A stretch of 62,604 nt of DNA from a virus (lineage: Duplodnaviria; Caudoviricetes), in the IMG/VR virus record IMGVR_UViG_3300044619_000874, positions 1-62,604 of that record. One strand, written 5' to 3'. Both the position numbers and the translations under genes were made by a program. Under the pieces are notes generated by a model. It did not search any database and was not told the origin of the DNA. It saw only the letters and a program-made list of their open reading frames with translations. Position 1 is the stretch's first letter. Every line of letters starts with the position of its first letter. Shown one piece after another: positions 47,472 to 62,484 of the stretch.

Positions 47472-47485
47472 CGAGGGTCTCCTGA

Positions 47486-49150: not shown

Positions 49151-49172
49151 GCCGTGTCTCCTTGTTGAGGGC

Positions 49173-50258: not shown

Positions 50259-50277
50259 GTTCTTCCTTCGCTCGGGG

Positions 50278-50718: not shown

Positions 50719-50778
50719 TGGGCCTCCTTGCTCGTTAGGGGCTGACATGCTTATGGAGCAGGGAGCCATAACACCGAC

Positions 50779-52092
50779 ATGGGAAATCCGAACGACGCAT
50801 GGATGCAGGAAGGCGCAGCGCACGCCCGGCGCGGGCTCGTCGACATGATTGGGCGACACATGCCCGATCACGACCCGGAGGAGTTGGCTGATATCCTGAT
50901 CTCTCGCTCCGGCGAGCCGATGTACTGGGACGTCGTTGAGGCCCTTGACGGCGAGATCGCGCAGTCCGCCCAAGGCCACCCGCGCGGGATCACCGCCGAC
51001 GAGCGGGATGCGCTGGGCGGCAATCGTTTCATGCCGGACTACCTGCTCGGGCCGGGCGACCAGAAGGCTTACGCCGCCCTGCGGGACTCCAACCTCCTGA
51101 ATGCAGCGGTCGGCAGGCGGCCGGTCGCAAGCATCGACGACCTGATCGGCGGGGCGAACTACCGCGAGGGCGAGGAGGCCAAACCTCTTGAACAGTTCAG
51201 CCACGGGTCTGCGCCGCCGGGGTTTGAGCGCGACTGGAACCTCGCAAACGCTGGGCACGACTACAACACCGCCTCACAGATGCCCACGCGGCACTCGACG
51301 TTCTTCGGGGGCTCGCCCTACCCGCAGCACCAGTGGATCGGCCAGCCGTCCACGCTGCTCAACTCGTGGAACAACAACCGCGACGGCGTGCTCGGTCAGG
51401 CGATGGGCGCGTTCGATAAGTGGGGCAGGGCGGCTAAGGCTGCTGGCAGGACTCCCGGTGCGTGGGGTGGCGAGACGCACGGCATCGACGGGACGGTCGG
51501 CGCGGTAGCGAAGTGGGGCGCAAACTTCCCGCCGCAACTAGAGAAAGCGGAGCAGGCGGAGTGGGGCGGTAATGCAGTCGGTCGAGGCAGCCCGCTCGTG
51601 CCGAACGGACTGCGAGATCCGCAACTCCGGCAGGACTCAATCGACAATCTAAAACACTTCACCGCCCAAGCATCAGAGACGCCCGACGTCTTCACCTACG
51701 GCAAGTCGGTGGGTCGTGGCTACTCGCCTGCTCTCGGGTGGGCTTTTGATATGGGCACCGAAATCGCCGACCCGCTTACGGCCGCCTCGCTCGGTGCATC
51801 GTTCGCCCCGAAGGTCATGTTCAATGTGGCGTCCGGTGGGATTGGACGAGGCGTGCTGCGGTCACTTGCCGACGACGCCCCGAGGTTCCTCGCAAAGGAG
51901 GCGGGACAGGAGGCGGCCTCGCCGATCACTTGGGGGGTCGGGGCACTCACGTTCCCGAAGATGGCTGGAGCACTCACTGGCGAGAACGTCACGCCAGCCG
52001 ATCAGGCCAAGGCTGCCGCCGAGATCGAGGCGCAGCACAGGCAGGCGAATGCTGCCGTGCAGAACATTCGCCAGATGAAGAAAGATTATTAG
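50779..52092 (+). CDS. Hypothetical protein in inverted orientation
   Basis: 437 aa, GGAG upstream, phage-like codon usage. Confidence 0.65.
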   Translation: MGNPNDAWMQEGAAHARRGLVDMIGRHMPDHDPEELADILISRSGEPMYWDVVEALDGEIAQSAQGHPRGITADERDALGGNRFMPDYLLGPGDQKAYAALRDSNLLNAAVGRRPVASIDDLIGGANYREGEEAKPLEQFSHGSAPPGFERDWNLANAGHDYNTASQMPTRHSTFFGGSPYPQHQWIGQPSTLLNSWNNNRDGVLGQAMGAFDKWGRAAKAAGRTPGAWGGETHGIDGTVGAVAKWGANFPPQLEKAEQAEWGGNAVGRGSPLVPNGLRDPQLRQDSIDNLKHFTAQASETPDVFTYGKSVGRGYSPALGWAFDMGTEIADPLTAASLGASFAPKVMFNVASGGIGRGVLRSLADDAPRFLAKEAGQEAASPITWGVGALTFPKMAGALTGENVTPADQAKAAAEIEAQHRQANAAVQNIRQMKKDY

Positions 52093-52346
52093 TCCTCGGA
52101 CTTGCCGAACCGGCTCCTGATGCTGGCAGCGTAGAGTTCAGCCCGCACGTCCGCAGCGGTCTTGCGCCACTCGTAGGCTTCGCCCTCAATGAGGTCGACC
52201 CGGGCCTTCTCGTACCGGAGCAGGGCGCGGAGTTTCAGTACTTCGGTACGCAGGGACTCGATCTCGGCTGCGGCGTCGAGTTGCGTCTGGTACAGGTTAG
52301 GCGTGTAGACCCACGACTTGATGCGTTCGAGGATGTCCCCAGTCAT
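52089..52346 (-). CDS. Hypothetical coiled-coil protein
   Basis: DILERIK...AAAEIESLR. Confidence 0.55.
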   Translation of the reverse strand: MTGDILERIKSWVYTPNLYQTQLDAAAEIESLRTEVLKLRALLRYEKARVDLIEGEAYEWRKTAADVRAELYAASIRSRFGKSED

Positions 52347-52460
52347 ACGTCAATTTGCTCCATTTTAGTAGTTTTGTGCATACGTTCGGGGCGTCTGTGA
52401 GGATGTCTGCTTTATCTGGCGTCCCGCGCGTATGCCTCCGGTATATCGGTCGCTACGAAA

Positions 52461-52706
52461 TCAAAGTCGCTCCAGCAGGGAGCGAAGCGTGGCGGCTTGC
52501 TTGTCGCTCCAATCGTCGCCAATCCTGACAGAGGCATAGATGCAGTTCTCAATCGCCTCACGCTCCTCGTCGGTGAGCGCGGGCTGCGGTGGATGAACCA
52601 GCGGGCCTCCTGCACCGCCTGACAAGGACGCCCGCAATGACTCTCGCTGCTCGTCTGTGAGCGTCACGTTTATTTGCGACGGAACTTGACATTGTGTTTT
52701 AGTCAC
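52461..52706 (-). CDS. LTDEER-family small protein
   Basis: LTDEEREA...TLRSLLERL. Confidence 0.6.
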   Translation of the reverse strand: MTKTQCQVPSQINVTLTDEQRESLRASLSGGAGGPLVHPPQPALTDEEREAIENCIYASVRIGDDWSDKQAATLRSLLERL

Positions 52707-53032
52707 TTCGTTCTCTCCAGTAGGTTGCGAAGCGTGTCAACGCGATCAAACTCTTCGCAGTTTCCAGCGAGTTCTTCCGCCCACTCCACCGCCTCCCGCT
52801 CCTCGTCGGTGAGCGTGGGCTGAAAAATCCTCGCAATCCTCCGCGCCGCAAGCCTCGCCCTGTCTTCGGCGTAACTGTTGCCGCCCTGCCACTTCTTTGT
52901 GGTGCCATCGCGATACCACCGCATGGCGCAGTGGACGATTTCGGCAACCCGCTCCAGTTGGGATTCCCCGTGAGAACCAGCGGATGCAGGAGGCATCGCT
53001 GCGGCGTCCTGCGGTGTAGTTTCGTCTGTCAT
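52703..53032 (-). CDS. LTDEER-family small protein
   Basis: LTDEEREA...TLRNLLERT. Confidence 0.6.
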   Translation of the reverse strand: MTDETTPQDAAAMPPASAGSHGESQLERVAEIVHCAMRWYRDGTTKKWQGGNSYAEDRARLAARRIARIFQPTLTDEEREAVEWAEELAGNCEEFDRVDTLRNLLERTK

Positions 53033-53057
53033 GCGATGCTCCTGATCCTGCGTGTTC

Positions 53058-53513
53058 TCAGCCTAGCCGTTCCAGCAACGCGCGGAGCGTCCTCGCTGCG
53101 GCATCGTCTCTGCGGCACGCACCATCCGATACGTCCTCCACGCCGTACAAAGCGTCGATTCCGCGATTCAACGCCTTCCGTTCCTCGTCGGTGAGCGTGA
53201 GCGGCGTGAGGGAGCAGTACTGCGTTGTGGTGCCTACGACATGCGGACACTGCACCGTTTCGCGGCTCTCTGCTGCACCAAATCGCACGGTGGGGTGCTC
53301 CATCATCGCGACCCGAAGCGTGGCGAGGTGCTCGTCAAACGCCCTTGCGGTGCGCATCCAGTAGTCACGTTCCTTCACCAAGGACTTCAGTTGCTCGGGC
53401 CATTCGGCTCGGATGCTCTCGATCTCGTAGGCAGCCTCTTCCATGAGGTCGGAGGCCGGGCTGGCGGCTGGCATGATCGACCAGTTGCGAAGCCGGGTGA
53501 CGATGTCGCTCAT
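53058..53513 (-). CDS. LTDEER-family protein
   Basis: MSDIVTRLR...LTDEERKA...TLRALLERL. Confidence 0.6.
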   Translation of the reverse strand: MSDIVTRLRNWSIMPAASPASDLMEEAAYEIESIRAEWPEQLKSLVKERDYWMRTARAFDEHLATLRVAMMEHPTVRFGAAESRETVQCPHVVGTTTQYCSLTPLTLTDEERKALNRGIDALYGVEDVSDGACRRDDAAARTLRALLERLG

Positions 53514-53767
53514 CGCTGGAACCTCACGGTAATGAACGTCCCAAGGAAGGCCCCGCAGACGAGCGGAACCAAGTACTTCGGATTGCGGCTGAAGGAGATC
53601 GTCCCGTACGCGAGCATGGCGTAGAGGAAGCACGAGATCACCGCAGCCCGGAAGGCCCGACGCTTGGCTACCTCGGCGATGTACCGGGCGTACATGATGT
53701 CCACGACGAAGTAGGTCGCGAACACCAGCCACGCAGTCATCCACTGGAACTCGTCGGTGTGCATCAC
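53510..53767 (-). CDS. Small multi-pass membrane protein
   Basis: Three hydrophobic segments. Confidence 0.65.
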   Translation of the reverse strand: MMHTDEFQWMTAWLVFATYFVVDIMYARYIAEVAKRRAFRAAVISCFLYAMLAYGTISFSRNPKYLVPLVCGAFLGTFITVRFQR

Positions 53768-54354
53768 TTCTCCATCGAGCGGAACAGGGCTGCGTCGGCC
53801 GACTCCAGACGACGCTCAAGGGCCTCGACCTGCTTTGCCAAGGACTTGCGTTCCTTGTATGCGAGCACGCACTGGCGGAGTTGCTTGATCACCCGGGCAG
53901 CCCGGTCGCAGATGGCCCGCATCTGGTTGGCGTCGAACTCGTGGCAGTACTTCTCCAGCACCTCGACGATGTCGAACCGATCCTGCGGGATCGCCTCTCG
54001 GTACTCGCTGGTCAGGGGAGCGGCCAGCCCGCCTTGATAAGGCAGTCCTTCAACCGCTCGATCTCCAGCCGGAGTTTCTGGTTCTGCTGCCGCAACGAGT
54101 CCAGTTGCTCGGACGTAGACGGGGGTGTGCTTTCCGACGTAGGCCCCGGTGATATTGAAGGCTGCATACTCTTCTGCGTCGTCGTAAGACATGCCGTCCC
54201 TCTCGACCATGATCTGGACGATCTTGTCGATGGAGTACACGGCGGAGATGGGGCGTAGGTGGTTGTCGGTGAGCCCGATGAAGGCTTCGTCCCAACCGTC
54301 AGCGAGGAGCACGTCCTCGTCGATCTCGGCTATCGCTTCACGGTCGATTGGCAT
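53764..54354 (-). CDS. Conserved phage hypothetical protein
   Basis: ADGWDEAFIG...EEYAAFNITGAYVG.HTP. Confidence 0.65.
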   Translation of the reverse strand: MPIDREAIAEIDEDVLLADGWDEAFIGLTDNHLRPISAVYSIDKIVQIMVERDGMSYDDAEEYAAFNITGAYVGKHTPVYVRATGLVAAAEPETPAGDRAVEGLPYQGGLAAPLTSEYREAIPQDRFDIVEVLEKYCHEFDANQMRAICDRAARVIKQLRQCVLAYKERKSLAKQVEALERRLESADAALFRSMEK

Positions 54355-54785
54355 GCCTTGGTCTCCTCGGCGGCAATGGCTTCGGCTCGGGCTCGCTCAT
54401 ACACGGCAGATGCTTCTTCGGGGGTGTCGTATGAACCGAGGCATCGATTGCAGTGCATCGCCATGAACTTCTCGCCCCTCCCGTAGACGCCGGTCGGCAG
54501 GTCTCGGTATCGGTGGCGAATGTTCAGCGACTGACCCCGGAGCGTCGTGGCCCGGAGGTTCGAGATTCGGTTGTCCCACGGCACGCCGTTCTTGTGGTCG
54601 ATGGTGCCGGGCGTCGGCCAGTAACCGTGAGCCAGAAACCAAACATGGTCGTGCTGCCGAATCCTCTTGGCCCCATCTGAACGATGGATGTAGCCACTCT
54701 TGGTCTTGCACCAGAGCATCGGGCACACCTGCTCGGCGTACTCGGGATCGACGACGTACTTCCAAGTGCTGCGATTCCGGGGCAT
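54330..54785 (-). CDS. HNH homing endonuclease (HNH plus AP2-like domain)
   Basis: IDHKNG...DNRISNLR; GVY...LGSYDTPEEA. Confidence 0.85.
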   Translation of the reverse strand: MPRNRSTWKYVVDPEYAEQVCPMLWCKTKSGYIHRSDGAKRIRQHDHVWFLAHGYWPTPGTIDHKNGVPWDNRISNLRATTLRGQSLNIRHRYRDLPTGVYGRGEKFMAMHCNRCLGSYDTPEEASAVYERARAEAIAAEETKACQSTVKR

Positions 54786-54816
54786 GGCGATACTCCGTTC
54801 GGGATTCGCGAACTGG

Positions 54817-54855
54817 AAACGCGGCCCGCAGGTCTTGGGCTTCCTGCGGGCCGCG
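54817..54855 (-). terminator. Hairpin after ssb
   Basis: GCGGCCCGCAGG/CCTGCGGGCCGC stem followed by TTT on - strand. Confidence 0.55.
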
Positions 54856-54879
54856 CCCCAACACCTGCGTCCTTGCAGG

Positions 54880-55251
54880 CTAAAATCCATGCCACGAGTC
54901 ATCCGACTCGGACTTCGGGCCACCGGCACCGGGCTGACGCTTCGGCCACTTCAGCGAGATGCCGACGTCATCAGCCATGACGGTCACCGAGGTTCGCTCG
55001 ACGCCGTCCTTCTCGTACTTCTCGACTTCGAGCCGCCCGGTCACCATGACCCGGTCGCCCTTGCCGACCTTCTCGGCGACGAGAGCGGCCATCTCGTCGA
55101 AGCACAGGACGTTGACCCATGAAGTTACGGGGTCACGACCCTCGATCTTCTTGGTAGAGGCCACGCTGAAGCGGCACATGTCTTTGCCGCCCTTGGTCTG
55201 CTTGAGTTCAGGGGCCTGACCGACATTGCCGAACACTTCTGCCTTGATCAT
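54880..55251 (-). CDS. ssb: Single-stranded DNA-binding protein
   Basis: GNVGQAPEL, FSVA, KGDRVMVTGRL, acidic C-terminus ending in F. Confidence 0.92.
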   Translation of the reverse strand: MIKAEVFGNVGQAPELKQTKGGKDMCRFSVASTKKIEGRDPVTSWVNVLCFDEMAALVAEKVGKGDRVMVTGRLEVEKYEKDGVERTSVTVMADDVGISLKWPKRQPGAGGPKSESDDSWHGF

Positions 55252-55294
55252 CTGAATCATCTCCTTGGTGTTGGGGACTGACCTAACGTGGCCC

Positions 55295-55321
55295 ATCATA
55301 GCGCGGTGGTCAAGCGTTCAG
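55295..55321 (-). promoter_or_regulatory. Promoter-like element CTGAACGCTTGACCACCG-N3-TATGAT upstream of ssb
   Basis: 18-mer identical to 62458-62475 on the opposite strand; -10-like hexamer follows. Confidence 0.6.
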
Positions 55322-55420
55322 TCGGACGCAATATCCCCGCGCAAAACGCATGTTCGTGATGTTTGCGATCGGGCCATAAGCCTTGCACCGAGCACCTTCC
55401 CCCCAACACTGAGGTGCTGC

Positions 55421-56215
55421 ATGCTTCGATCAATCGCGTTCGCTCTCGCGCTGGCCGGTGCCGCAGTACTCGGTCTCGCCTTCTCGCTGTTCGGTGCTGG
55501 CATGGCACTCGCTGGCACGATCACCGGCACTGCCCAGACGTTCGACTCCGAGATTCGGCAGCGGCTGAGTGAGTACGAGGATTGGGGTGTCTGGAATGCA
55601 GGCACCCTGCAAGCCAACGTCACCAGCGGGGCAGGGCGGATCAACTACTCCCTGACGGCCTCGGCACCGGCTACGCCACTGGCTCGTGATCCCGGCGTGG
55701 CGATCTTCAACACGGGGAACGGGTACTACGTCGGCGGGCTCTCCTACGTCACCAACAGTGCCGAGGGGAAGGGCTTCACCTTGACCGTGCCATATCAGTA
55801 CGCCAATGGGAACCGGCTCGACCTGTGGCTGATGACCAATGGGCCTGTCTCGGCAGACATCACCGCCTCTGAACTCTTGGGGTCAGGGACTACGGTGAGC
55901 CTTTCTCCGTACCAGAACTACATCGTGTCGTTCATCTCGACGGGGCTGACCGAAGACCTGACCGTGAGCATGGTGGGCCGGGGCAACTTCAACAGCGCAC
56001 AGGGGCAGATGTCATTCGGTGCCGCAGCACTTTCCCCTGTGGTGGTGCCCGAGCCGGAGTACTGGCTGGCGTTCCTGCTGCTCATCGGCGGCTTCGTGGC
56101 ATACCGGGTGGTCGAGACGATCTGGTGGTTCTACGACACGGTGCGGACGCTGGAAGACGACTTCGAGGGACGAAAACTCCCCGAGGGTGACTTGGAAGAC
56201 CGCTGGCTGCCGTAG
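55421..56215 (+). CDS. Secreted PEP-CTERM-type protein
   Basis: Signal peptide, Thr/Ser/Gly-rich body, VPEPEY followed by TM helix and a cytoplasmic tail. Confidence 0.75.
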   Translation: MLRSIAFALALAGAAVLGLAFSLFGAGMALAGTITGTAQTFDSEIRQRLSEYEDWGVWNAGTLQANVTSGAGRINYSLTASAPATPLARDPGVAIFNTGNGYYVGGLSYVTNSAEGKGFTLTVPYQYANGNRLDLWLMTNGPVSADITASELLGSGTTVSLSPYQNYIVSFISTGLTEDLTVSMVGRGNFNSAQGQMSFGAAALSPVVVPEPEYWLAFLLLIGGFVAYRVVETIWWFYDTVRTLEDDFEGRKLPEGDLEDRWLP

Positions 56216-56336
56216 CACTTCGGATCGAGAGGGTAGCCACCGACCGCCAGTGGCGTGATTCACTCCCTCCGATCTGTGGCCGACGCCTGACGCAGCCTGA
56301 CAACGGCCGGGCGCAGGGGCGGAGTTGGCCTGCGGC

Positions 56337-56429
56337 TCACACAGCCGGGCCGTCAATGAACTGCATCGGGAGGAACTCGTCCTCCTCGGCTTCCCACTCG
56401 TCCTCGTCGCAGATGTGCCACCCAGCCAT
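56337..56429 (-). CDS. Acidic micro-protein, 30 aa
   Basis: MAGWHICDEDEWEAEEDEFLPMQFIDGPAV; GGAGG RBS; translated by hand. Confidence 0.5.
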   Translation of the reverse strand: MAGWHICDEDEWEAEEDEFLPMQFIDGPAV

Positions 56430-56572
56430 GCTCGCCTCCAGTGAGAGGCTTATGGCTCGACCGGCCTAAGTCGGGAAATCGATTCTGAGGGCCCTAGCGT
56501 GCGTTCTGGCGGGTTCGGCCACCCGGTGTACCTGCGTACACCAATCGGGCTTCTGGGGCGATCCTAGCGCGC

Positions 56573-57112
56573 CTACGGGCCATCTACGATCGGCAGGCAC
56601 ATCTGGCCCGGCAGAAACTTGGAAGGCTCGGGCTGGAGGGGCTCCGGGGCAACCACGGGCACCTCGTAGTTCTTCCGGGCCTCCGCGTAGATGTGGCCGA
56701 TGTGGTTGTCGTACCACGGCCTGCCCGTCCGGCTCCTGCTCCCCCAGCGGTTCAGTGCGCTGGCAATCTTCCCAAACGACCAGCACTCGTCGTCGCGGAG
56801 CATTCGGACGACCCGGCGAACCGCCTGCTCTAAGGGGTTCTCGATCAGCCTGCTATCGCGGGTGACCTCGTACCCGTAGGGCGGTCGGCCGATGCGGCGG
56901 TTCTCATCGCGAGCCCGCTCTTGACCCTCGCGGACGAGAGTGGCGACGCCGTCAGTGCGGTTACGACGAAGGTCGTGCGTCTTGTCGTGGCATGTCGGGC
57001 ACAGCGGCACAGTGCGAGTCCCGCCGCGCGACTGCGGGATGACGTGATGCTGCTCCTCGGCCGGGGAGCCGCACTCAAAGCAGCGATCGGGGTGTATGAC
57101 CAGCGCATCCAT
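56573..57112 (-). CDS. HNH-like domain fused to serine-recombinase DNA-binding (recombinase) domain
   Basis: CFEC...HHVIP.SRGG...LCPTCH, then GRPPYGY...SFGKIASALN..G.RSRTGRPW. Confidence 0.75.
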   Translation of the reverse strand: MDALVIHPDRCFECGSPAEEQHHVIPQSRGGTRTVPLCPTCHDKTHDLRRNRTDGVATLVREGQERARDENRRIGRPPYGYEVTRDSRLIENPLEQAVRRVVRMLRDDECWSFGKIASALNRWGSRSRTGRPWYDNHIGHIYAEARKNYEVPVVAPEPLQPEPSKFLPGQMCLPIVDGP

Positions 57113-57228
57113 GCGCTATGGGTTTCGCGCAGCGTGTCAAGTTTGGCAACAGGTTTAGCGCGCTACAGGGGGCGAGATATTTTGAGCGTCAACTCGTGGT
57201 GGCATGTATGTATGGGCCAGCCGCCGCC

Positions 57229-57260
57229 GGGGGGCTCGGGGCGGGGCGGGGCGGGGCGGG
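57229..57260 (+). repeat. G-run tract (GGGGC)n, potential G-quadruplex
   Basis: GGGGGG-CTC-GGGG-C-GGGG-C-GGGG-C-GGGG-C-GGG. Confidence 0.7.
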
Positions 57261-57471
57261 CAGCGGCGTGGCGGGCCTGTTTTTCCGCAGCGAACGCGGG
57301 GCACCGTGGGAACCTTCGGTGCCCCAAGGGCGTACCGCGATCCCAGATTGTGGCATTCCCGCCCGCATTACTTATGGCGCGACATTCGCACCGCACTACA
57401 TTCCGCCGTCGGATTTCTTCGCACGCCCCACGTTCGCGGGCACCGCTCGATTCCCCGCGAGTTATCGCCGT

Positions 57472-57488
57472 GCGGCTAGGTGTTTTGG
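57472..57488 (+). repeat. Motif variant GCGGCTAGGTGTTTTGG
   Basis: 3 mismatches to the 15-mer; precedes first early gene. Confidence 0.55.
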
Positions 57489-57521
57489 ATCGATGCAACA
57501 CCCCCAACGGAGACGACGACG

Positions 57522-57755
57522 ATGATCCACAACCGACTGACAGTGAGCCTCGACCGGGACGACGTCACCATGATCGTGGCCGCCCTCGCAACGATGCGAG
57601 TGGACGCCGAAACCAACGCGGCCAACATGGCGGCCGTCGATGATGACATGCGAGACGATGACGCCATCGCCGATGCCCGGGCAGTGGTCGCCGACTTGCA
57701 ACGGCTGAGCGACCGACTCGTGTCCGCTGCGGTCTACGCCGCGAGATACCGCTGA
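57522..57755 (+). CDS. Hypothetical acidic helical protein
   Basis: GGAG RBS, 77 aa. Confidence 0.6.
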   Translation: MIHNRLTVSLDRDDVTMIVAALATMRVDAETNAANMAAVDDDMRDDDAIADARAVVADLQRLSDRLVSAAVYAARYR

Positions 57756-57830
57756 GCGGCTAGTCGTTCTGCCCCCCCTCAACACCTTGACGCGATGCGG
57801 CCCGTAGCAGGGCGTTCCTGCTGCGGGCCG
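57756..57830 (+). repeat. Motif GCGGCTAGTCGTTCT plus hairpin
   Basis: 1 mismatch; stem 57798-57811/57817-57830. Confidence 0.8.
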
Positions 57831-57851
57831 TTCGCATTTGGAGACTCTTCG

Positions 57852-58853
57852 ATGATCGCTCTCAACACCGTGATGCCACGCCTGCCCAAGATGGGCAAGC
57901 CTCCCCGGGCTCGTACTGCCAAGGCCAAGGGGCCGATCTTCCCGCGTCGTGCTGCGATGGAACTGGCACAGTTCGTGATGGATGCCCCGTCTGCCGCCGC
58001 CATCGCCGCGAAGTGTCGATGGATGATCGAAGACATGGTCGCCCGGTTTCCCGGCCGTGGGCCGCACGTTTCGGGCTCGTGGGAATGGATGCTCGCACGC
58101 ATCGCCGACGCCATCGACAACGGCACCGATGCCTTCACGCTCATCAGCATGGACGGCAACACGAAGTTGCCCTTCGCGTCGTGGTCATGCCTGCCTGTCG
58201 TGACGTGCCCGGGCATGGGTGCGTGCGGGAAGTTCTGCTACAGCCTGCGGGCATGGCGGAACCCATCGGCCTACGGTCGCCAACTGTGGGCGACCATCGT
58301 GCTGCGGTTCTATCGCCGCCGCATCATCGATGCGTGGAAGGCCCTCCCCGCTGGCATCGTCGTGCGGCTGTACGTTGACGGTGACTTCGACTCGGCCGAG
58401 ACGCTGCGGTTCTGGTTCAACCTGATCGCCCAACGGCCCGACCTGCGGGTCTACGGGTACTCGAAATCGTGGCACCTGCTGATCGATTGGCACCGTGCGG
58501 GACATACGTTCCCGGCCAACTACTACGTCAACGTGTCGAGCGGGTCGAAGTACGACAACGACCCTGCGATGCGGCAGGCCATGCTCGACCTGCCCGTGGC
58601 TCGCGGCGAGTTCATCGTCGTGAAGGTCAAGGGTGAGGGCACGCTCTGGCCGAAGGGTTTCCAGCGGTACCAGTCCAAGGCATACCACGAGGCGGTCTAC
58701 GCCGAGGCCAAGCGTCTCGGCATCAAGGGCGTGTCGTGCGGCGGTGACTGCGGTGCGTGCGGCAACGGCACCCACTGGTGCGGTGCGATCCAGCCCAACG
58801 GCACCGTGAAGCAGTCGCTGATCGGCCTGCCCATCCTTATCGGTGCCCACTGA
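57852..58853 (+). CDS. gp88-like Cys-cluster (radical-SAM-like) protein
   Basis: GNTKL, TCPGMGACGKFCY, RLYVDGDF, YGYSK, CGGDCGAC. Confidence 0.75.
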   Translation: MIALNTVMPRLPKMGKPPRARTAKAKGPIFPRRAAMELAQFVMDAPSAAAIAAKCRWMIEDMVARFPGRGPHVSGSWEWMLARIADAIDNGTDAFTLISMDGNTKLPFASWSCLPVVTCPGMGACGKFCYSLRAWRNPSAYGRQLWATIVLRFYRRRIIDAWKALPAGIVVRLYVDGDFDSAETLRFWFNLIAQRPDLRVYGYSKSWHLLIDWHRAGHTFPANYYVNVSSGSKYDNDPAMRQAMLDLPVARGEFIVVKVKGEGTLWPKGFQRYQSKAYHEAVYAEAKRLGIKGVSCGGDCGACGNGTHWCGAIQPNGTVKQSLIGLPILIGAH

Positions 58854-58863
58854 AACGGGCACT

Positions 58864-58879
58864 GCGGCTAGTAGTTCTG
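58864..58879 (+). repeat. Dispersed motif, perfect copy
   Basis: GCGGCTAGTAGTTCTG. Confidence 0.9.
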
Positions 58880-58912
58880 AACCCCAGCACCCTCTCGAAA
58901 GGACGATGACGC

Positions 58913-59089
58913 ATGGCTTCCTACGACGTCTTCATCAACTCCGGCGTGAACGTGACCATCCCCGACAGCGTTGACCCATCGACGCCCGAGGGGCACCGCA
59001 TCCTCCGCGATGCCACGCTCGCCCGCCTTCGCACGCTCCTCGACGAGGGCGGCGAGATCGACCTCGACTACGAACGATACGACGGCTGA
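58913..59089 (+). CDS. Small hypothetical protein, 58 aa
   Basis: MASYDVFINSGVNVTIPD...DYERYDG; AAGGA RBS; translated by hand. Confidence 0.6.
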   Translation: MASYDVFINSGVNVTIPDSVDPSTPEGHRILRDATLARLRTLLDEGGEIDLDYERYDG

Positions 59090-59097
59090 CAGTTCTG

Positions 59098-59121
59098 AAC
59101 CCTCACCCTCAACAGGAGATT
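59098..59121 (+). repeat. 24-bp leader repeat, copy 1
   Basis: AACCCTCACCCTCAACAGGAGATT, identical at 59387-59410. Confidence 0.9.
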
Positions 59122-59127
59122 GCGACC

Positions 59128-59388
59128 ATGCCATGCGGATACCACTTTCGCATCTGCAAATGCTGCGACCACCCGGGCCACGAGCGTGGCATACCCGGGT
59201 GCAAGCACAGCGGCCAGCCCGGATACCACCTCCTCGTGACACTGCCGGGTTCGACCGGCCACGTTGCGACCGAGGATCGCGTGATGCTCGACCGCACGCT
59301 GTTCAGTAGTTGGCCCATCGCCCGCATTCACAAGCAGTACAGCAAGGCGTACCCGCACTGCGAAGTCGAAGTGACCCGGCTCCCTTAA
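59128..59388 (+). CDS. Small Cys/His-rich protein
   Basis: AGGAG RBS, 86 aa. Confidence 0.6.
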   Translation: MPCGYHFRICKCCDHPGHERGIPGCKHSGQPGYHLLVTLPGSTGHVATEDRVMLDRTLFSSWPIARIHKQYSKAYPHCEVEVTRLP

Positions 59389-59410
59389 CCCTCACCCTCA
59401 ACAGGAGATT
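59387..59410 (+). repeat. 24-bp leader repeat, copy 2
   Basis: Identical to 59098-59121. Confidence 0.9.
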
Positions 59411-59415
59411 CGACC

Positions 59416-59685
59416 GTGAACGTCCACCTGAATGCTGACCTGCCCGCCGTGAACGATGTGCCGACGCTACACGCCTTCGACTACATCACGCTGCTGGAGT
59501 ACTGCCGATTGGCACGGCTCGACCACGCCAAGACTCTCGAACGACTGACCGACTCGACGATCACGTTCGGCGGCGGATGCGGCGAGATGACGTTCATCGC
59601 CGCCCATCACCTGTCGGAAGAACTCGGCGTCGAAAACCCAGCCAGCCTCACGGCACGGTGCTGGACGCCCGTCTGGCTCGGCTGA
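59416..59685 (+). CDS. Hypothetical protein
   Basis: AGGAG RBS, GTG start. Confidence 0.6.
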   Translation: MNVHLNADLPAVNDVPTLHAFDYITLLEYCRLARLDHAKTLERLTDSTITFGGGCGEMTFIAAHHLSEELGVENPASLTARCWTPVWLG

Positions 59686-59768
59686 CCAACCAACCCACAA
59701 CCCAGTACTGCGGCCCCGGCGGGAGCGTTTCCCGTGCGGGGTCGCAGCGTTTCCAGAGGAGAGTTCCC

Positions 59769-60176
59769 GTGTACTACGTTCGCTTCCACCTTGCCAAAGG
59801 CCAGCACTTCAAGCACTGGCAGATCACTGCCCCCGATGGATCGAAGACCTTCCACGATCCCAACGATGTGCAGATCAAGATGTTCGGCTGCACCCTGCAC
59901 AACCAGCCGGGTACCGCTGCCCGCATTAACGCGGGCGAGATCGACAAGACCGTCTGTGCTGGCGTCGAGTGCGAGCATCTCGTCGTGAAGCAACTGCGGT
60001 GCTGGCACCTGCCCGCACCGGGTGAGCGTGTCTTCTACAACCCGCGAGTCACCCCGTTCTGGCGTGACTGTGAGGGCGTGAACATCGACGGCTCGGGGTG
60101 GGAGCAGATCACCACCATGAGCAGCGGCCTGTTCGCGACCGGCCGCGTGGCCGAGCACGTTCTCTCCCTCGGCTGA
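59769..60176 (+). CDS. Hypothetical protein
   Basis: GAGGAG RBS before GTG; RFHLAKG.HFKHWQI...YNPR. Confidence 0.65.
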   Translation: MYYVRFHLAKGQHFKHWQITAPDGSKTFHDPNDVQIKMFGCTLHNQPGTAARINAGEIDKTVCAGVECEHLVVKQLRCWHLPAPGERVFYNPRVTPFWRDCEGVNIDGSGWEQITTMSSGLFATGRVAEHVLSLG

Positions 60177-60213
60177 TTGATTCTGTGACCCCAACCCCCA
60201 ACACGAAAGGACG

Positions 60214-60648
60214 ATGACGATGCATGGGCTCTTTGTTCAGCGGCCGTTCGCCAGTTCGCTGGTGCATGGCACGAAGATGATCGAGACGCGGTCGTACCCG
60301 CTGCCCGAGTCTCTGCTCGGGAAGAGGGTGTTCATCATCGAGACGCCACGCACCGGGCAACGCCGGTCGGGTGATCGCGGGGAGATCGTCGGCACCGTGC
60401 GGTTCGGTGGCTGGAAGTTGTACCTCGACAAGGAAGAGTGGCTCTCCGATGCCCTGCTGCATCGCGTCGAGGACGGCGACCTGCTGTACGGGTGGCGTGA
60501 CGACAAGAAGAAGTACGGCTGGGAGGTGACCGAGTACGAGCCGTGGACTGTGTGCAACTACCGAGGCACAGGGTACGGCAGGGTCTGGGTCACAGGCTGC
60601 GAGCCCGCCGCCCTCATCCCCGACGTTCAGCGTGCGGTTCGTTCGTGA
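60214..60648 (+). CDS. ASCH-domain protein
   Basis: LFVQRPFASSLVHGTKMIETRS...GEIVGTV. Confidence 0.85.
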   Translation: MTMHGLFVQRPFASSLVHGTKMIETRSYPLPESLLGKRVFIIETPRTGQRRSGDRGEIVGTVRFGGWKLYLDKEEWLSDALLHRVEDGDLLYGWRDDKKKYGWEVTEYEPWTVCNYRGTGYGRVWVTGCEPAALIPDVQRAVRS

Positions 60649-60733
60649 ACCCCGGCCCGTGATCGGCAGCCCTCCGCAGGGCGGGCTGCCATTCGTGGAT
60701 CGTGGATCGATGACCAATCTGGAGTACTGAATC

Positions 60734-61276
60734 ATGGCTGATCAACTGAAGATCGTGTGCCGCCCGTCCTTCGACGAGATGTATGTCGAGAGCGAGAGCG
60801 GCTACATGCTGGCGAACCTGTACCGCTCCGCCAAGATGGCGGACGGCGACGTCGAGGTTATTGTCGGGGACGACTGCTGTTCGCTTGCCGCCCACAACGT
60901 CACCACCGAGGAGCAGTGGCGTGGCATCTGCGATCTGTTCGCTGCCGCACCGGAGATGCTCGCGGTGCTGCGTGACCTGCGTGCCACGCTGGAGGTGTTG
61001 ACTGGGTGGCGTGAACTCGACGGCACGCAGATCGACCAACTCATCGCCAGCGATGGGCTGCACTACCTCGACAAGGTCATCGCCAAGGCCGAGCCACCCC
61101 GCAAGGTGAAGAAGCGTCTGCTCGTCTCGGTCGAGGTCGAGGTCGAGGCCGACTCCGACGCCACGCTCGACGTGTTCAAGACCCGTGCCCTCGACAGCGT
61201 CTACACCGGGGGCGGTGTGTGCGTGTCGTTCAAGGGCAAGACGGTGACCACGCTCGGCGAACTCTACGAGGAGTGA
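60734..61276 (+). CDS. Hypothetical protein
   Basis: AAAPEMLAVL motif common in small phage proteins; GGAG RBS. Confidence 0.65.
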   Translation: MADQLKIVCRPSFDEMYVESESGYMLANLYRSAKMADGDVEVIVGDDCCSLAAHNVTTEEQWRGICDLFAAAPEMLAVLRDLRATLEVLTGWRELDGTQIDQLIASDGLHYLDKVIAKAEPPRKVKKRLLVSVEVEVEADSDATLDVFKTRALDSVYTGGGVCVSFKGKTVTTLGELYEE

Positions 61277-61280
61277 GTGA

Positions 61281-61347
61281 GCGGCTAGTAGTTCTAGACA
61301 CACAGTTCCACGACCCCGGCAGGTGCGTTGCCTGACCGGGGTCGTGG
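61281..61347 (+). repeat. Perfect motif plus bulged hairpin
   Basis: GCGGCTAGTAGTTCTAG; stem 61308-61323/61331-61347. Confidence 0.9.
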
Positions 61348-61366
61348 TGTTTCAAGAGGTGATGCG

Positions 61367-61735
61367 ATGGGTGCGATGAAGCGTGCGGCCTACGAGGTGA
61401 GCGGAGCAATGCTCGACCGCTTCGTGGCTTGGTCGAAGACCGAGGAGTTCAGGGAGGGCGGCGTCTACCACAAGGCCGACGCCATCGTGAAGTGGATGCG
61501 GGAGGAGGGGTTCGTGGGCAGCCGCCCGCTGTTCGCCCTGCTGCGTGAACTGCACGAGGAGACGAAGCCGGGCACCAATGACGGCGGTGCGTCGTGGCGT
61601 TGGTGGCTGGTCGAGCGGGTGACCGAGTGCATCGAGCGGAAGTACGAGCGGGAGTACGAGGTGGCCGAGGCCGCTCGCACCCTGCTGCGTTCGATGACCG
61701 ACGAGGTGGACGCCATCGTGAAAGGAGATGCGTGA
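61367..61735 (+). CDS. Hypothetical protein
   Basis: GAGGTG RBS. Confidence 0.6.
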   Translation: MGAMKRAAYEVSGAMLDRFVAWSKTEEFREGGVYHKADAIVKWMREEGFVGSRPLFALLRELHEETKPGTNDGGASWRWWLVERVTECIERKYEREYEVAEAARTLLRSMTDEVDAIVKGDA

Positions 61736-62034
61736 TGCGATTCCGCAAGGCCAAGGACGGCACGATCTCGTACCACGCCAAGGTCGGGCGAGGCGTGGAC
61801 TATCAGGTGCAGTACTACCCGAAGACAGGGTGGAAGGCACAGCGTCGTGAGTTCTACGAGGTCGGTGTTCGCTTTGGAGGCGGGCACATTCACGACTCGC
61901 TCACTGATGCCAAGGCGTGGTGCGTCAAGGACTACCTCGCGTTCGCAGTCCAGCGTGATGCGTTCGATTCCATCATGGAGGAGAGGAGGTTGGTGCGTGA
62001 AGACGGTGACCGAGCAGGAGTACCGGGTGAGTGA
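61735..62034 (+). CDS. Hypothetical protein
   Basis: TGATG coupling, AGGAG RBS. Confidence 0.55.
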   Translation: MRFRKAKDGTISYHAKVGRGVDYQVQYYPKTGWKAQRREFYEVGVRFGGGHIHDSLTDAKAWCVKDYLAFAVQRDAFDSIMEERRLVREDGDRAGVPGE

Positions 62035-62308
62035 GCGTGTCGTGCTCCGCCCGGGTGTGAAGTTCAGGGCAGGCGGAGGGCCGTACTACCGCATGCCCGA
62101 CGGGACACGAGTGAGCCTCGCTGCGGCGGGGCCGTTCACCTTCCACGCATACCACAGGCGTGGCAAGGCAGGGTGGATCGAGGCAACCGACAAGCACGGC
62201 TGCTTCGCCCCGCTCCATGTGGCAGGTAGGCGGCGTCGTGTGACGCCGTCGTTGGTACCCCGACCGTACATCGTGCGGTCAACCGTCCGGAGGAAGAAGG
62301 ATGAGTAA
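61997..62308 (+). CDS. Hypothetical basic protein
   Basis: GGAGG RBS before GTG. Confidence 0.55.
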   Translation: MKTVTEQEYRVSERVVLRPGVKFRAGGGPYYRMPDGTRVSLAAAGPFTFHAYHRRGKAGWIEATDKHGCFAPLHVAGRRRRVTPSLVPRPYIVRSTVRRKKDE

Positions 62309-62378
62309 TGCGGAATGGATTCCGCTGGTGATCGAGGTGATCAGGCTGATCGCTGAGATCGTGCGGCAAGGAGGCTGA
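62301..62378 (+). CDS. Micro-peptide, 25 aa (MSNAEWIPLVIEVIRLIAEIVRQGG)
   Basis: Purine-rich RBS; ends 1 nt before the motif; translated by hand. Confidence 0.5.
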   Translation: MSNAEWIPLVIEVIRLIAEIVRQGG

Positions 62379-62379
62379 T

Positions 62380-62446
62380 GCGGCTAGTAGTTCTGGACAG
62401 CACGGCGGGCCACGGGAGATCGGTTCTCTCGTGGCCCCCGTGCTTT
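62380..62446 (+). repeat. Perfect motif plus bulged hairpin with TTT
   Basis: GCGGCTAGTAGTTCTGG; stem 62399-62444. Confidence 0.9.
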
Positions 62447-62457
62447 ACCGGGGTCGG

Positions 62458-62484
62458 CTGAACGCTTGACCACCGGGTGACAAT
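62458..62484 (+). promoter_or_regulatory. Promoter-like element CTGAACGCTTGACCACCG-N3-GACAAT upstream of ORF 47-928
   Basis: 18-mer identical to the inverted copy at 55304-55321. Confidence 0.55.

What the first reader, a model, noticed from the sequence alone, without database searches (positions are those of the whole stretch)
57472..62395. Strand-specific 15-mer GCGGCTAGTAGTTCT punctuates only the early region: candidate undescribed control or cassette system
Seen: five perfect copies (58864, 61281, 62380, 938, 4326), near copies (57756, 2140, 57472) and degenerate ones (59082, 60169). All are on + within about 9.5 kb across the junction, and I noticed none elsewhere. The fullest form contains CTAG-N5-CTAG. 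Most copies sit at or just after a stop codon and before a GC hairpin. The region is bracketed by the HNH-recombinase fusion and the serine recombinase. Inference, alternatives: (a) recombination borders of shuffled gene cassettes, analogous to integron cassettes or T4-type promoter-stem-loop modules; (b) antitermination or pause signals ahead of terminators; (c) programmed nick or protein-loading sites on first-injected DNA; (d) repeated early promoters or operators.
Basis: partly seen in the sequence, partly recalled or inferred. Interest (0 to 1): 0.85.

Follow-up and report, generated by a model that had tools for sequence, protein, structure and literature searches.

The report
Repeated gene-boundary signal in phage operon
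A short one-strand DNA signal sits at nearly every gene boundary of one variable operon in an uncultured freshwater phage and its relatives; it most likely controls transcription of each gene unit, and genes are swapped at it.

Summary
GCGGCTAGTAGTTCT occurs 5 times perfectly, 3 times with 1-3 mismatches and twice degenerately. All copies are on the + strand, within 9.3 kb of a circularly closed 62,472-nt phage genome. That stretch is the genome's only long + strand operon, a block of accessory genes.

The 15-mer is the core of a ~21-nt signal, TGAnC-GGCT-N4-G-N-T-YY-GGA. Five related phage genomes carry the same signal at the same gene junctions, always co-oriented with the genes (42 sites).

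- **Position:** it abuts or overlaps the stop codon of the gene before. A CA-rich spacer follows, then either a ribosome site and ATG, or a covarying GC hairpin plus ribosome site.
- **Gene exchange:** between close relatives, genes are gained and lost at this signal and at the repeated leaders next to it.

Best reading (about 0.4, inferred): a phage-specific promoter-type signal heading each expression unit, with a conserved phage ECF-type sigma factor as candidate reader.

Rivals: an RNA-level antitermination or processing signal, a stoperator-like operator, or a dedicated recombination site (least supported).

It is a new variant of known reiterated phage control cassettes (T4 PeSLs, T7 promoters, mycobacteriophage stoperators). 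No RNA ends or binding data exist.

The parts
57472..57486 (+). First copy (GCGGCTAGGTGTTTT, 3 mismatches). It lies in the 410-nt non-coding region between the divergent gene sets, 35 nt before the first ATG of the + operon (57522).
   Evidence: relatives also have a first copy in this non-coding region
57756..57770 (+). Copy with 1 mismatch, directly after the TGA of gene 57522-57755. The hairpin 57796-57832 follows, then the ribosome site and ATG 57852 of the GP88-like gene.
58864..58878 (+). Perfect copy 10 nt after the stop of the GP88-like gene. A CA-rich leader follows, then ATG 58913.
   Evidence: this junction differs in relative L048
59082..59096 (+). Degenerate GA-type copy. Its TGA is the stop codon of gene 58913-59089. 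The leader CCTCACCCTCAACAGGAGA follows, then ATG 59128.
60169..60183 (+). Degenerate GA-type copy. Its TGA is the stop codon of gene 59769-60176. A CA-rich leader follows, then ATG 60214.
   Evidence: an RNA-library contig of a related strain diverges from the window upstream of 60164
61281..61295 (+). Perfect copy, followed by a CA spacer, a GC hairpin (loop TGCGTT) and a ribosome site. The module 61281-61361 is 88-89% identical to L209 and L210.
62380..62394 (+). Perfect copy followed by a GC hairpin. The next gene starts at 62519, which equals 47 across the junction.
938..952 (+). Perfect copy, immediately followed by the hairpin 953-984 with a T-rich tail, then the ribosome site and ATG 1020 of the AAA/MoxR-like gene.
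2140..2154 (+). Copy with 2 mismatches. Its TAG is the stop codon of the AAA gene. A hairpin follows, then the DUF2201/VWA gene.
4326..4340 (+). Perfect copy inside the HNH/endonuclease VII-like ORF 3823-4479, read as RLVVL. It is about 150 nt before the overlapping start of the next gene (4476).
57522..62472 (+). First part of the + strand accessory operon, up to the junction. It holds the GP88-like gene and about 11 small genes of no known family.
47..6042 (+). Second part of the + operon: DUF6744-like gene, AAA/MoxR-like gene, DUF2201/VWA gene, HNH gene, 4476-5162, and a serine recombinase.
5948..6538 (-). ECF-type sigma factor, convergent with the end of the + operon. It is the candidate reader of the signal (inferred).

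Best explanation
**What it is.** The 15-mer is the core of a ~21-nt, one-stranded signal, TGAnC-GGCT-N4-G-N-T-YY-GGA. It heads the expression units of the phage's only long + strand operon, which is a hyper-variable block of accessory genes.

**Unit layout.** Each unit reads: signal (touching or overlapping the previous stop codon), CA-rich spacer, an optional GC hairpin, ribosome site, then one or a few ORFs.

**Most likely function (inferred).** I read the signal as a promoter-type element that a phage-specified transcription machine recognises. The candidate reader is the ECF-type sigma factor at 5948-6538, which is conserved in all five relatives.
- A GC-rich 5' half (GGCT) would be the binding part.
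- The central four bases would set lineage specificity.
- The AT-rich 3' half (GTTCT) would be the melting part, with a start at the purines that follow.
- The hairpin would then end and stabilise the transcript of the unit before. This resembles the promoter-then-hairpin order that I recall from T7.

**Side effect (shown by comparison).** The same ~20 nt, and a few leader types, recur at every junction. They act as patches of homology at which genes are gained, lost and swapped.

**Shown versus inferred.** Shown: the anatomy, strand bias, conservation at orthologous junctions, lineage-specific variants and breakpoints. Inferred: that transcription starts here, and who reads the signal.
For: 1. 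**Far above chance and strand-pure.**: 13 matches against 0.99 expected; a PWM built from other genomes finds 6-11 + strand sites against 0-1 - strand sites in each of 6 genomes; shuffles give 0.15-0.75.
2. **Conserved at the same junctions.** The signal sits before and after the GP88-like gene, before the 61328-61735 homologue, before and after the DUF6744-like gene, and after the AAA gene. These genomes share only about 50-64% protein identity. The module 61281-61361 is 88-89% identical to L209 and L210, while most flanking coding matches are 67-81%.
3. **One contiguous block.** GGCT, G8 and T10 are invariant in 42 of 42 sites. An AT-rich 3' half sits in a 63% GC genome, and purines follow.
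4. **Lineage-specific centre.** The window has AGTA, L210 has TGTA, and L050, L130 and L209 have GA(T/C)(T/A), with near-uniformity inside the window and L210. This would be expected if a phage-encoded reader co-evolves with the site.
5. **A first copy ahead of the first ORF.** It lies in the long non-coding region in the window, L050, L130, L209 and L213.
6. **Steady distance to the ATG.** In units without a hairpin the distance is 30-40 nt.
7. **The signal travels with the gene behind it.** In L209 an inserted cassette brings its own signal plus leader plus ORF, and L210 has neither at that junction. L048 carries a different motif subtype joined to a different downstream gene.
8. **Copies inside coding sequence where genes overlap.** The window has a copy inside the HNH ORF. 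L209 and L210 have one inside the homologue of 4476-5162. The protein sequence has bent to carry the DNA word: VRLVV replaces DRAQL with no change in length.
9. **A conserved phage sigma factor exists.** A profile of five homologues hits ECF SigK at E 6.6e-8 and RpoE over regions 2-4.
10. **Context.** In more distant phages that carry the GP88-like gene, the reiterated intergenic element is a recognisable TTGACT-17 nt-CATTAT promoter (L062 and L071). Halovirus HF2 intergenic repeats were shown to carry promoters (PMC8707807; abstract in a search listing only).
Against: - **No RNA 5' ends.** The one RNA run found holds only assembled contigs of a related strain. Two of these contigs run across the motif. 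That fits read-through and says nothing about transcription starts.
- **Hairpins downstream.** In 25 of 42 sites a strong hairpin with a T-rich tail lies 0-26 nt downstream of the signal. A transcript started at the signal would meet a terminator at once, unless the hairpins are leaky or are ignored by the modified polymerase.
- **Order is reversed.** In PeSLs (PMC4122927, figure legend passage) and in L071 the stem-loop comes before the promoter.
- **Does not fit a textbook ECF promoter.** There is no information at -35-like positions.
- **No sigma-70-like hexamers at the sites**.
- **The sigma gene lies in the - strand replication block** and has no motif upstream, so it may serve other genes.
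- **No phage RNA polymerase was found** (Pfam and PHROGs on the large ORFs; no D.D.D motif).
- **Uniformity of copies could come from gene conversion** rather than co-evolution. L209 carries a coding copy of the TGTA type while its intergenic copies are of the GA type.
Confidence: 0.4

Rival explanations
1. **RNA-level signal in the untranslated gap.** The signal would be transcribed and bound or cut as single-stranded RNA as soon as the ribosome leaves the stop codon. It could be a reiterated nut/boxA-like antitermination site loaded before the CA-rich spacer and terminator. Or it could be a processing site that separates the units, leaving the hairpin as an end-protector.
For: - The order stop codon, signal, CA-rich spacer, hairpin is constant in all hairpin-bearing units of six genomes.
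- The upstream ORF's stop codon is one of the signal's own stop triplets in 28 of 42 sites, so the signal starts exactly where translation ends.
- The signal is predicted unpaired.
- The hairpin family is under structural selection: 13 of 16 pairs show compensatory changes, and the loop GCGTT is nearly invariant.
- A copy lies in the leader before the first gene, as for nut sites.
- Contigs from an RNA library run across the signal.
- From recall only: in lambda, nutR lies between the cro stop codon and tR1, and boxA is a U-rich GCUCUUU word.
Against: - 17 of 42 sites have no strong hairpin.
- Some hairpins have no full signal, or only a remnant of one (59685 and 60648 in the window; the L210 junction at 6031).
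- The spacing from signal to hairpin varies from 0 to 26 nt.
- Processive antitermination needs one or two sites per operon, not eight to ten.
- A host Nus factor would not explain the lineage-specific centre.
- Copies inside translated ORFs would be covered by ribosomes.
- Rfam has no match in the region.
- No N-like, Q-like or RNase gene was recognised. The only trace is a faint PHROG Q-like hit on the sigma factor, E 0.008.
Confidence: 0.22
2. **Operator or roadblock sites for a phage DNA-binding regulator (stoperator-like).** A protein would bind the asymmetric word at the operon's promoter region and at each junction, and shut the accessory operon off. This could happen in lysogeny or late in infection.
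For: - The anatomy matches the published description of L5-type sites: asymmetric 13-mers in promoter regions and in short intergenic spaces, with orientation tied to the direction of transcription (PMC9283540, abstract and introduction passages).
- Here there are 8-10 co-oriented sites, a first copy in the non-coding region, and the rest in short gaps.
- The invariant GGCT and G-N-T lie about one helical turn apart, as for a monomer with two contact surfaces.
- Lineage-specific variants resemble immunity groups.
- The genome encodes an HTH protein (11748-12134, HTH_psq, E 2.4e-6) and a serine recombinase.
Against: - The sites are confined to one operon; none lies among the roughly 50 kb of - strand genes.
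- No repressor-like gene was recognised in the roughly 70 ORFs scanned.
- There is no sign of lysogeny. One scan of 185,579 species genomes with the capsid protein found a single 11.6-kb contig in a metagenome bin and no flanked prophage.
- This reading does not explain why the signal always lies before the hairpin, or why an inserted cassette brings one.
Confidence: 0.18
3. **Dedicated site-specific recombination site (integron-like).** The conserved serine recombinase at the end of the array, or the HNH-recombinase protein at its start, would cut and join at the word and so move cassettes.
For: - A resolvase-family recombinase closes the array in the window, L050 and L130, and the region matches in L209 and L210.
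- Direct repeats in one orientation bound the variable genes.
- Four precisely mapped differences between strains fall at the edge of the word or inside it: L209 2126, L130 12007, and the window at 57773 and 60164.
Against: - Of the 5 indels between L209 and L210, only 1 has the word at a border, and only at one end. The others are flanked by an 18-nt repeat of a gene's 3' end, a 37-nt leader repeat, or roughly 20-nt ribosome-site and start repeats. That is the mark of homology-driven exchange.
- The word lacks the dyad symmetry of serine-recombinase crossover sites. A near-palindrome exists in only 3 window copies and not in the relatives.
- There is no tyrosine integrase and no attC-like fold.
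- The genome has its own general recombination genes: ERF, a PDDEXK nuclease and RusA.
Confidence: 0.07
4. **No function of its own.** The word would be a passenger of a duplicated intergenic module, kept alike by gene conversion. Alternatively it marks strand-specific nicks.
For: - Whole modules (spacer, hairpin, leader) are clearly paralogous and duplicated.
- Gene conversion is suggested by the coding copies.
- From recall only: strand-specific nick sites exist in T5-like and phiKMV-like phages.
Against: - Four positions plus two are invariant in 42 of 42 sites across six genomes, while the flanks are free.
- The word is kept at orthologous junctions although the neighbouring genes have diverged to about 50% identity.
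- The window keeps the tetranucleotide CTAG inside the word. Elsewhere the genome avoids it: 42 found against 209 expected, and 11 of the 12 in the operon region lie in the word.
- Nick sites in other phages are not tied to gene boundaries (recall).
Confidence: 0.06

Closest known systems
PeSLs (promoter-early stem-loops) of T4-type phages
   Same: - Short composite regulatory cassettes repeated at the gene boundaries of hyper-variable regions.
- Each ends in a ribosome site and a start codon.
- Indels and replacements between close relatives are bounded by them.
- Sequence variants differ between phage pairs.

Sources: PMC4122927 (abstract, introduction and figure-legend passages); PMC2839356 (abstract in a search listing).
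   Different: - In PeSLs the stem-loop lies upstream of a sigma-70-type -35/-10 promoter. Here the conserved word lies upstream of the hairpin.
- The word has no sigma-70-like hexamers.
- It overlaps the previous stop codon.
- The host and the phage lineage are unrelated to T4.
Stoperators of Cluster A mycobacteriophages (L5 gp71 sites)
   Same: Asymmetric short words in many copies, in promoter regions and in short intergenic gaps, with orientation tied to the direction of transcription (PMC9283540 passages).
   Different: - Stoperators are spread over the whole genome and go with a known immunity repressor in temperate phages.
- Here the sites are in one operon only.
- No repressor was found and there is no sign of lysogeny.
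Phage-polymerase promoters of T7-type phages
   Same: - A contiguous block of about 20 nt, highly uniform, all in one orientation.
- It lies at or over gene ends and is often followed by a hairpin.
- A few central positions set the specificity between relatives.

All of these T7 features are from recall, not from a call.
   Different: No T7-like or other phage RNA polymerase gene was recognised here. The only candidate reader is an ECF-type sigma factor.
Lambda-type nut sites (boxA + boxB)
   Same: A single-stranded word just after a stop codon and ahead of a terminator, followed by a hairpin with a conserved loop (recall for lambda; for this phage).
   Different: - Eight to ten copies instead of two.
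- Long GC stems with T-rich tails instead of a small boxB.
- No N-like protein.
- The centre of the word differs between lineages.
Integron cassette arrays
   Same: A one-way array of variable small genes separated by a repeated element, with a recombinase gene at one end.
   Different: - The recombinase is a serine enzyme, not a tyrosine integrase.
- The repeat is 21 nt and unstructured, not a folded attC.
- The repeat lies at the 5' side of an inserted cassette.
- Most indel borders are other repeats.

Membership tests
PeSL (T4-type composite terminator/promoter cassette) | Repeated at gene boundaries of a hyper-variable region, ending in a Shine-Dalgarno sequence and a start codon | tested here: met
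   gene content between the conserved genes differs among the window, L050, L130, L209 and L210
PeSL (T4-type composite terminator/promoter cassette) | Stem-loop lies just upstream of a sigma-70-type -35/-10 promoter (PMC4122927, Fig. 3 legend passage) | tested here: not met
   The conserved word precedes the hairpin in all 17 aligned hairpin units. There are 0 sigma-70-like promoter hits at the sites and no -35 signal.
PeSL (T4-type composite terminator/promoter cassette) | Indels between close relatives are bounded by the elements | tested here: met
   Window against L048; L209 against L210, where 5 indels all have borders in the intergenic modules but only 1 at the word itself; the right border of the L130 and L213 difference lies inside the word.
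Stoperator system (Cluster A mycobacteriophages) | Asymmetric word in many copies, orientation tied to transcription, in promoter regions and short intergenic gaps | tested here: met
Stoperator system (Cluster A mycobacteriophages) | Sites spread across the genome, on both transcription arms | tested here: not met
   No site of PWM score above 13.4 lies outside 57472..4340. The cross-genome PWM gives 0-1 - strand hits per genome.
Stoperator system (Cluster A mycobacteriophages) | A cognate immunity repressor binds the word and blocks elongation | not testable with these tools
   No repressor family hit in the ORFs scanned; the only DNA-binding hit is an HTH_psq protein at 11748-12134. Binding cannot be tested here.
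T7-type phage-polymerase promoter | The phage encodes its own RNA polymerase | tested here: not met
   No Pfam or PHROG polymerase hit in the ORFs of 745-1214 aa or in the others scanned; no D.D.D motif. Three large ORFs remain without any match, so a very divergent enzyme is not excluded.
ECF sigma factor promoter | A sigma factor of the ECF group is present | tested here: met
   Five-sequence profile against the PDB: SigK 6.6e-8, SigL 0.0014, RpoE 0.0022 over regions 2-4. Pfam Sigma70_r2 is only E 0.0011 and below its cut-off.
ECF sigma factor promoter | Two blocks (-35 and -10) about 16-17 nt apart (recalled definition) | tested here: not met
   One contiguous 21-nt block. Information is at most 0.3 bit at nearly all positions from -45 to -6; the exception is position -23, at 0.53 bit.
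Lambda-type nut site | boxA word plus a small boxB hairpin, one site per operon, and an N-type protein (recalled definition) | tested here: inconclusive
   A word followed by a hairpin with a conserved loop is present. But there are 8-10 copies, the stems are long with T-rich tails, and no N-like protein was recognised. The boxA likeness rests on recall.
Integron | Tyrosine integrase, folded attC sites, cassettes cut out precisely at the sites (recalled definition) | tested here: not met
   The recombinase is of the serine type; the word is unpaired; 4 of the 5 L209 and L210 indels have borders that are other repeats.

The most novel reading that the evidence does not exclude
The word could be the recognition site of a still unrecognised phage-encoded factor, in a lytic phage of an uncultured freshwater host. 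The factor would re-programme transcription unit by unit. It might be a single-block promoter read by a minimal ECF-like sigma factor, or a reiterated loader for local terminator read-through.

The four central bases would act as a lineage 'code' that isolates the accessory-gene arrays of co-infecting relatives, while the shared flanks still let cassettes move between them. That would make it a combined expression-and-exchange system, distinct from PeSLs, stoperators and integrons.
Probability: 0.15. Interest if true: 0.8.

Novelty: new variant of a known kind. Interest (0 to 1): 0.5.

Why it matters
Reiterated control cassettes explain how phages keep newly acquired genes expressed and how their variable regions are shuffled. 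So far they have been worked out mainly for T4-type phages, T7-type phages and mycobacteriophages.

This case comes from an uncultured, high-GC freshwater lineage with no relative among 50,697 deposited phage records. It differs from the known cases in three ways:
- the order of parts is different (word, then hairpin);
- the word overlaps the stop codon of the gene before;
- the centre of the word changes in concert between lineages.

If a phage factor reads it, the pair would be a compact, orthogonal expression part. It would also give a handle for annotating transcription units in metagenomic phage genomes.

The practical value now is modest. The function is inferred and the host is unknown.

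Tried and rejected
**Searches for relatives that found little**
- Megablast and blastn of the region against deposited phages gave no match. tblastn with the terminase gave only two remote hits.
- An exact 15-mer scan of viral contigs gave 40 single, unrelated hits. None resembles the window by blastn, so the exact word is private to this phage.
Only the already known contig of L050 had 3. It was not useful for counting family members.
- Single-protein scans of viral contigs with the DUF2201 and GP88-like proteins found nothing. The portal protein found only a 17-kb fragment with an identical portal.

**Known RNA and promoter families**
- Rfam at E up to 1 gave three weak matches, none in the + operon. 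No tRNA genes were found.
- The sigma-70 promoter scan found 0 sites in 55000-62604 and 2 unrelated - strand sites in 1-9000. A host-type promoter reading was dropped.
- By eye the word fits neither a sigma-54 promoter nor a consensus pause or ops site. These comparisons rest on recalled consensus sequences and were given no weight.

**Ideas tested and dropped**
- Trans-acting antisense RNA: no reverse-complement copy of the word exists in the genome at up to 2 mismatches.
- The 4326 copy as a 15-nt insertion in the HNH gene: rejected. Homologues have the same length there, with DRAQL where the window has VRLVV.
L209 has the gene without the internal word.
- Phage RNA polymerase: no family hits and no D.D.D motif. 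One Atlas query gave no usable hit.

**RNA run**
- One metatranscriptome run holds a tenth of the sampled words. It is kept as contigs of a related strain at depth 2-5.
- It cannot show starts, ends or strand. Parts without cover mean nothing.

**Host**
- One contig in a metagenome bin labelled Phycisphaerales carries a capsid gene 84% identical.
- Binning of a phage contig is weak evidence, so I name no host.

**Limits**
- Supplementary files of the papers were not opened. They might hold PeSL or stoperator site lists that would sharpen the comparison.

Full report
**The record.** The window is a complete IMG/VR virus record. Its first 132 nt recur at its end (1-132 = 62473-62604, 98% identical). 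The genome is therefore circularly closed or terminally redundant, with 62,472 unique bases. GC content is about 63%.

A GC3-based ORF map puts most genes on the - strand:
- capsid, portal and terminase;
- tail proteins;
- the ERF, nuclease and helicase block;
- RusA.

One long + strand operon runs from 57522 across the junction to 6042. It holds:
- a GP88-family gene (PF17338);
- many small genes with no known family;
- a DUF6744-like gene;
- an AAA/MoxR-like ATPase;
- a DUF2201/VWA protein;
- an HNH/endonuclease VII-like gene;
- a resolvase-type recombinase.

Isolated + strand ORFs also exist at 15018-15569 and 55265-56215. Deposited phages hold no relative.

**The observation.** The copy counts, strand purity and chance statistics are given under the observation check. 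In brief, eight strong and two degenerate copies all lie on the + strand inside the + operon, against a chance expectation of about one. What looked like 'strand-specific and only in the early region' is one fact: the word is co-oriented with the only long + operon.

**Anatomy.**
- The word touches the gene before it. The upstream stop codon lies 0-15 nt before the word or inside it.
- After the word comes a CA-rich stretch.
- Then comes either a ribosome site and start codon 30-36 nt on (57472, 58864, 59082, 60169), or a strong GC hairpin with a T-rich tail followed by a ribosome site (57756, 61281, 62380, 938, 2140).
- Where + genes overlap (ATGA-type junctions) there is no word.
- Two junctions with hairpins carry only remnants: GGCTGA at 59685 and TGATCGGC after 60648.
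- The word itself is predicted unpaired.
- CTAG is strongly avoided in this genome (42 found, 209 expected). Eleven of the 12 CTAGs in the operon region lie in the word.

**Relatives.** The GP88-like protein has 681 homologues in metagenomes. Scans with protein alignments brought in five related genomes:
- L050 (the same contig as L131 and L211);
- L130 (the same contig as L212);
- L209;
- L210;
- L213.

A 1.3-kb fragment at 91% DNA identity, L048, also came in. tblastx shows conserved order from the capsid gene through the + operon to the sigma-like gene.

All five genomes carry arrays of the same kind of word in the + orientation:
- L050 has 10 copies of (GAT)TGGCTGATTGTTCTG;
- L130 and L213 have TGA(T/A)CGGCTGATTGATT;
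- L209 has 7 copies of TGATCGGCTGA(T/C)(T/A)GTT;
- L210 has 5 copies of GGCTTGTAGTT plus one GA-type copy.

A logo of 42 sites gives TGAnC-GGCT-N4-G-N-T-YY-GGA. GGCT, G8 and T10 are invariant in 42 of 42 sites. No information lies upstream where a -35 element would be. A PWM built without the genome being scanned (and without its near twin) finds 6-11 + strand hits and 0-1 - strand hits per genome. Shuffles give 0.15-0.75.

The word sits at the same junctions in the different genomes:
- before and after the GP88-like gene;
- before the homologue of 61328-61735;
- before and after the DUF6744-like gene;
- after the AAA gene.

The proteins at these junctions share only about 50-64% identity. The module 61281-61361 is 88-89% identical to L209 and L210, while most flanking coding matches are 67-81%.

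The upstream ORF ends at one of the word's own stop triplets in 28 of 42 sites (17 at TGA at -5, 11 at TAG or TGA at +3). A hairpin of -25 kcal/mol or stronger follows in 25 of 42 sites. Seventeen hairpin units align as one family. Thirteen of the 16 pairs show compensatory changes, and the loop GCGTT is nearly invariant.

**Gene exchange.**
- *L048 against the window.* L048 matches the window through the stop codon of the GP88-like gene. It then jumps to the leader of the gene at 59416 and lacks the two small genes 58913-59089 and 59128-59388. Its junction carries a different subtype of the word (TCGGCTGATCGTTTC) joined to the leader CCTCACCCTCAACAGGAGA. The window has that leader twice, on either side of gene 59128-59388.
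- *L209 against L210.* These differ by five indels in the operon:
  - a cassette made of word, leader and ORF, flanked by an 18-nt repeat of a gene's 3' end;
  - an ORF flanked by a 37-nt leader repeat;
  - a replaced 5' part of a gene just after a module;
  - a small ORF flanked by a repeated ribosome-site stretch;
  - the HNH gene, flanked by a 19-nt ribosome-site and start repeat.
- *L130 against L213.* These are 97-99% identical except for a replaced block whose right border lies inside the word.
- *RNA-library contigs.* Contigs of a related strain diverge from the window upstream of 57773 and 60164, at the edges of two copies. They also diverge at three other places.

So the word is one of several short repeats at which exchange happens. 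That fits homology-driven recombination, and the phage has ERF, a PDDEXK nuclease and RusA. It does not fit a dedicated site-specific system.

**Copies inside genes.** The 4326 copy is not an insertion. Homologues of the HNH protein have the same length there. The closest four read VRLVVL like the window, and the more distant ones read DRAQLL. The gene has therefore been bent to spell the word.

L209 and L210 carry CGGCTTGTAGTT inside the homologue of 4476-5162 (DRLVVM), where the window reads YRFTQM. L210's intergenic copies are of that same TGTA type. L209's are not.

These coding copies lie in the part of the operon where genes overlap and no intergenic space exists.

**Possible readers.** The ORF at 5948-6538(-) is conserved in all five relatives at 49-67% identity. 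As a profile it matches ECF sigma factors in the PDB: SigK 6.6e-8, and RpoE over regions 2-4 at 0.0022. An HTH_psq protein lies at 11748-12134. No RNA polymerase, repressor, N-like or clear Q-like protein was recognised in the ORFs scanned.

**Weighing the readings.** A promoter-type signal explains the most features:
- a contiguous, uniform, one-way block with a GC-rich half and an AT-rich half followed by purines;
- a first copy ahead of the first gene;
- a steady 30-40 nt to the ATG;
- the word travelling with the downstream gene;
- copies embedded in coding sequence;
- a lineage-specific centre;
- a conserved phage sigma factor.

Its weak points are the hairpins downstream of the word, the lack of a two-block ECF layout, and the absence of any RNA 5' end data.

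The constant order stop codon, word, hairpin favours an RNA-level signal (antitermination or processing). That reading fits poorly with the many hairpin-less sites, the hairpins without a word, the copy number and the coding copies.

A stoperator-like operator fits the anatomy as published (PMC9283540). It lacks a repressor, any sign of lysogeny and genome-wide spread.

I put the promoter-type reading at 0.4, the RNA-level reading at 0.22, the operator at 0.18, dedicated recombination at 0.07, and passenger or nick sites at 0.06.

**Comparison with known systems.**
- *PeSLs.* They share the role and the shuffling but have the reverse order of parts and a sigma-70 promoter (PMC4122927 passages).
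- *Distant phages with the GP88-like gene.* They show that ordinary layout: a hairpin with a T run, then TTGACT-17 nt-CATTAT, then ATG (L071 and L062). Other lineages have their own reiterated words.
- *Halovirus HF2.* Its intergenic repeats were shown to carry promoters (PMC8707807; abstract in a search listing only).

The finding is therefore a new variant of a known kind, in a lineage with no cultured member.

Noticed in passing
window 1-132 and 62473-62604: A 132-nt direct repeat at the two ends (98% identical). The record is labelled linear but is circularly closed or terminally redundant. The gene at 47-928 starts inside the repeat.
   Followed up: yes
window 5948-6538 (-): A phage-encoded ECF-type sigma factor, conserved in five related genomes. 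Pfam alone misses it (Sigma70_r2 below its cut-off), but a five-sequence profile hits SigK at 6.6e-8.
   Followed up: partly
window 57228-57273: A (GGGGC)n tract in the 410-nt non-coding region between the divergent gene sets. The matching regions of L050 (about 9080-9110) and L130 (about 9300-9340) also hold G-rich or GC-repeat tracts. It could be an origin, a packaging site or a G-quadruplex.
   Followed up: no
window 7392-8081 (-): The ORF carries the N-terminal domain of dATP/dGTP diphosphohydrolase (PF18909, E 6.8e-14). This family is linked, by recall, to phages that replace adenine. No PurZ-like hit came up in the ORFs I scanned, and not all ORFs were scanned.
   Followed up: no
window 59101-59119 and 59390-59408; 60720-60736; 58897-58912 and 60197-60213: Three leader types recur: CCTCACCCTCAACAGGAGA; GGAGTACTGAATCATG (also in L130, with a variant in L048); and CGAAAGGACGATGACG. 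They recur before unrelated genes and across genomes, and they flank indels.
   Followed up: partly
window 52548-52586, 52784-52822, 53166-53204: A 39-nt direct repeat family (core CTCCTCGTCGGTGAGCG on the + strand) in a stretch where few ORFs pass the GC3 filter. It may mark paralogous small - strand genes or a second reiterated element.
   Followed up: no
window 3823-4479, 8680-9108, 54330-54929, 56573-57112: Four HNH-type nuclease genes in one 62-kb genome. One is fused to a Recombinase-domain fragment. The homologue of 3823-4479 is present in L209 and absent in L210, and it is flanked by a 19-nt repeat.
   Followed up: partly
whole window: Strong avoidance of CTAG (42 found, 209 expected from base composition). 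A quarter of all CTAGs lie in the ten copies of the word.
   Followed up: partly
L208 (genome contig): An 11.6-kb contig in a metagenome bin labelled Phycisphaerales carries a capsid gene 84% identical to the window's. It is a weak host clue and may only reflect binning.
   Followed up: no
L142/L143/L161, L170/L174, L181, L112/L163, L154/L179: Other phage lineages that carry the GP88-like gene each have their own reiterated intergenic word near it. Examples are 17 copies of ACAGGCACTC, 38 copies of GCTGCACTAT, and 6 copies of the palindrome GTCAAGACGGTCTTGAC.
   Followed up: no
window 35339-36223 (-): The ORF has collagen-like repeats and a CBM_5_12 carbohydrate-binding module. It is probably a fibre or receptor-binding protein.
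   Followed up: no
window 55265-57112: A + strand ORF of 316 aa with no family, and the HNH-recombinase gene, lie between the SSB gene and the non-coding region. L050 and L130 have no match to this stretch, so it looks like an inserted block.
   Followed up: no
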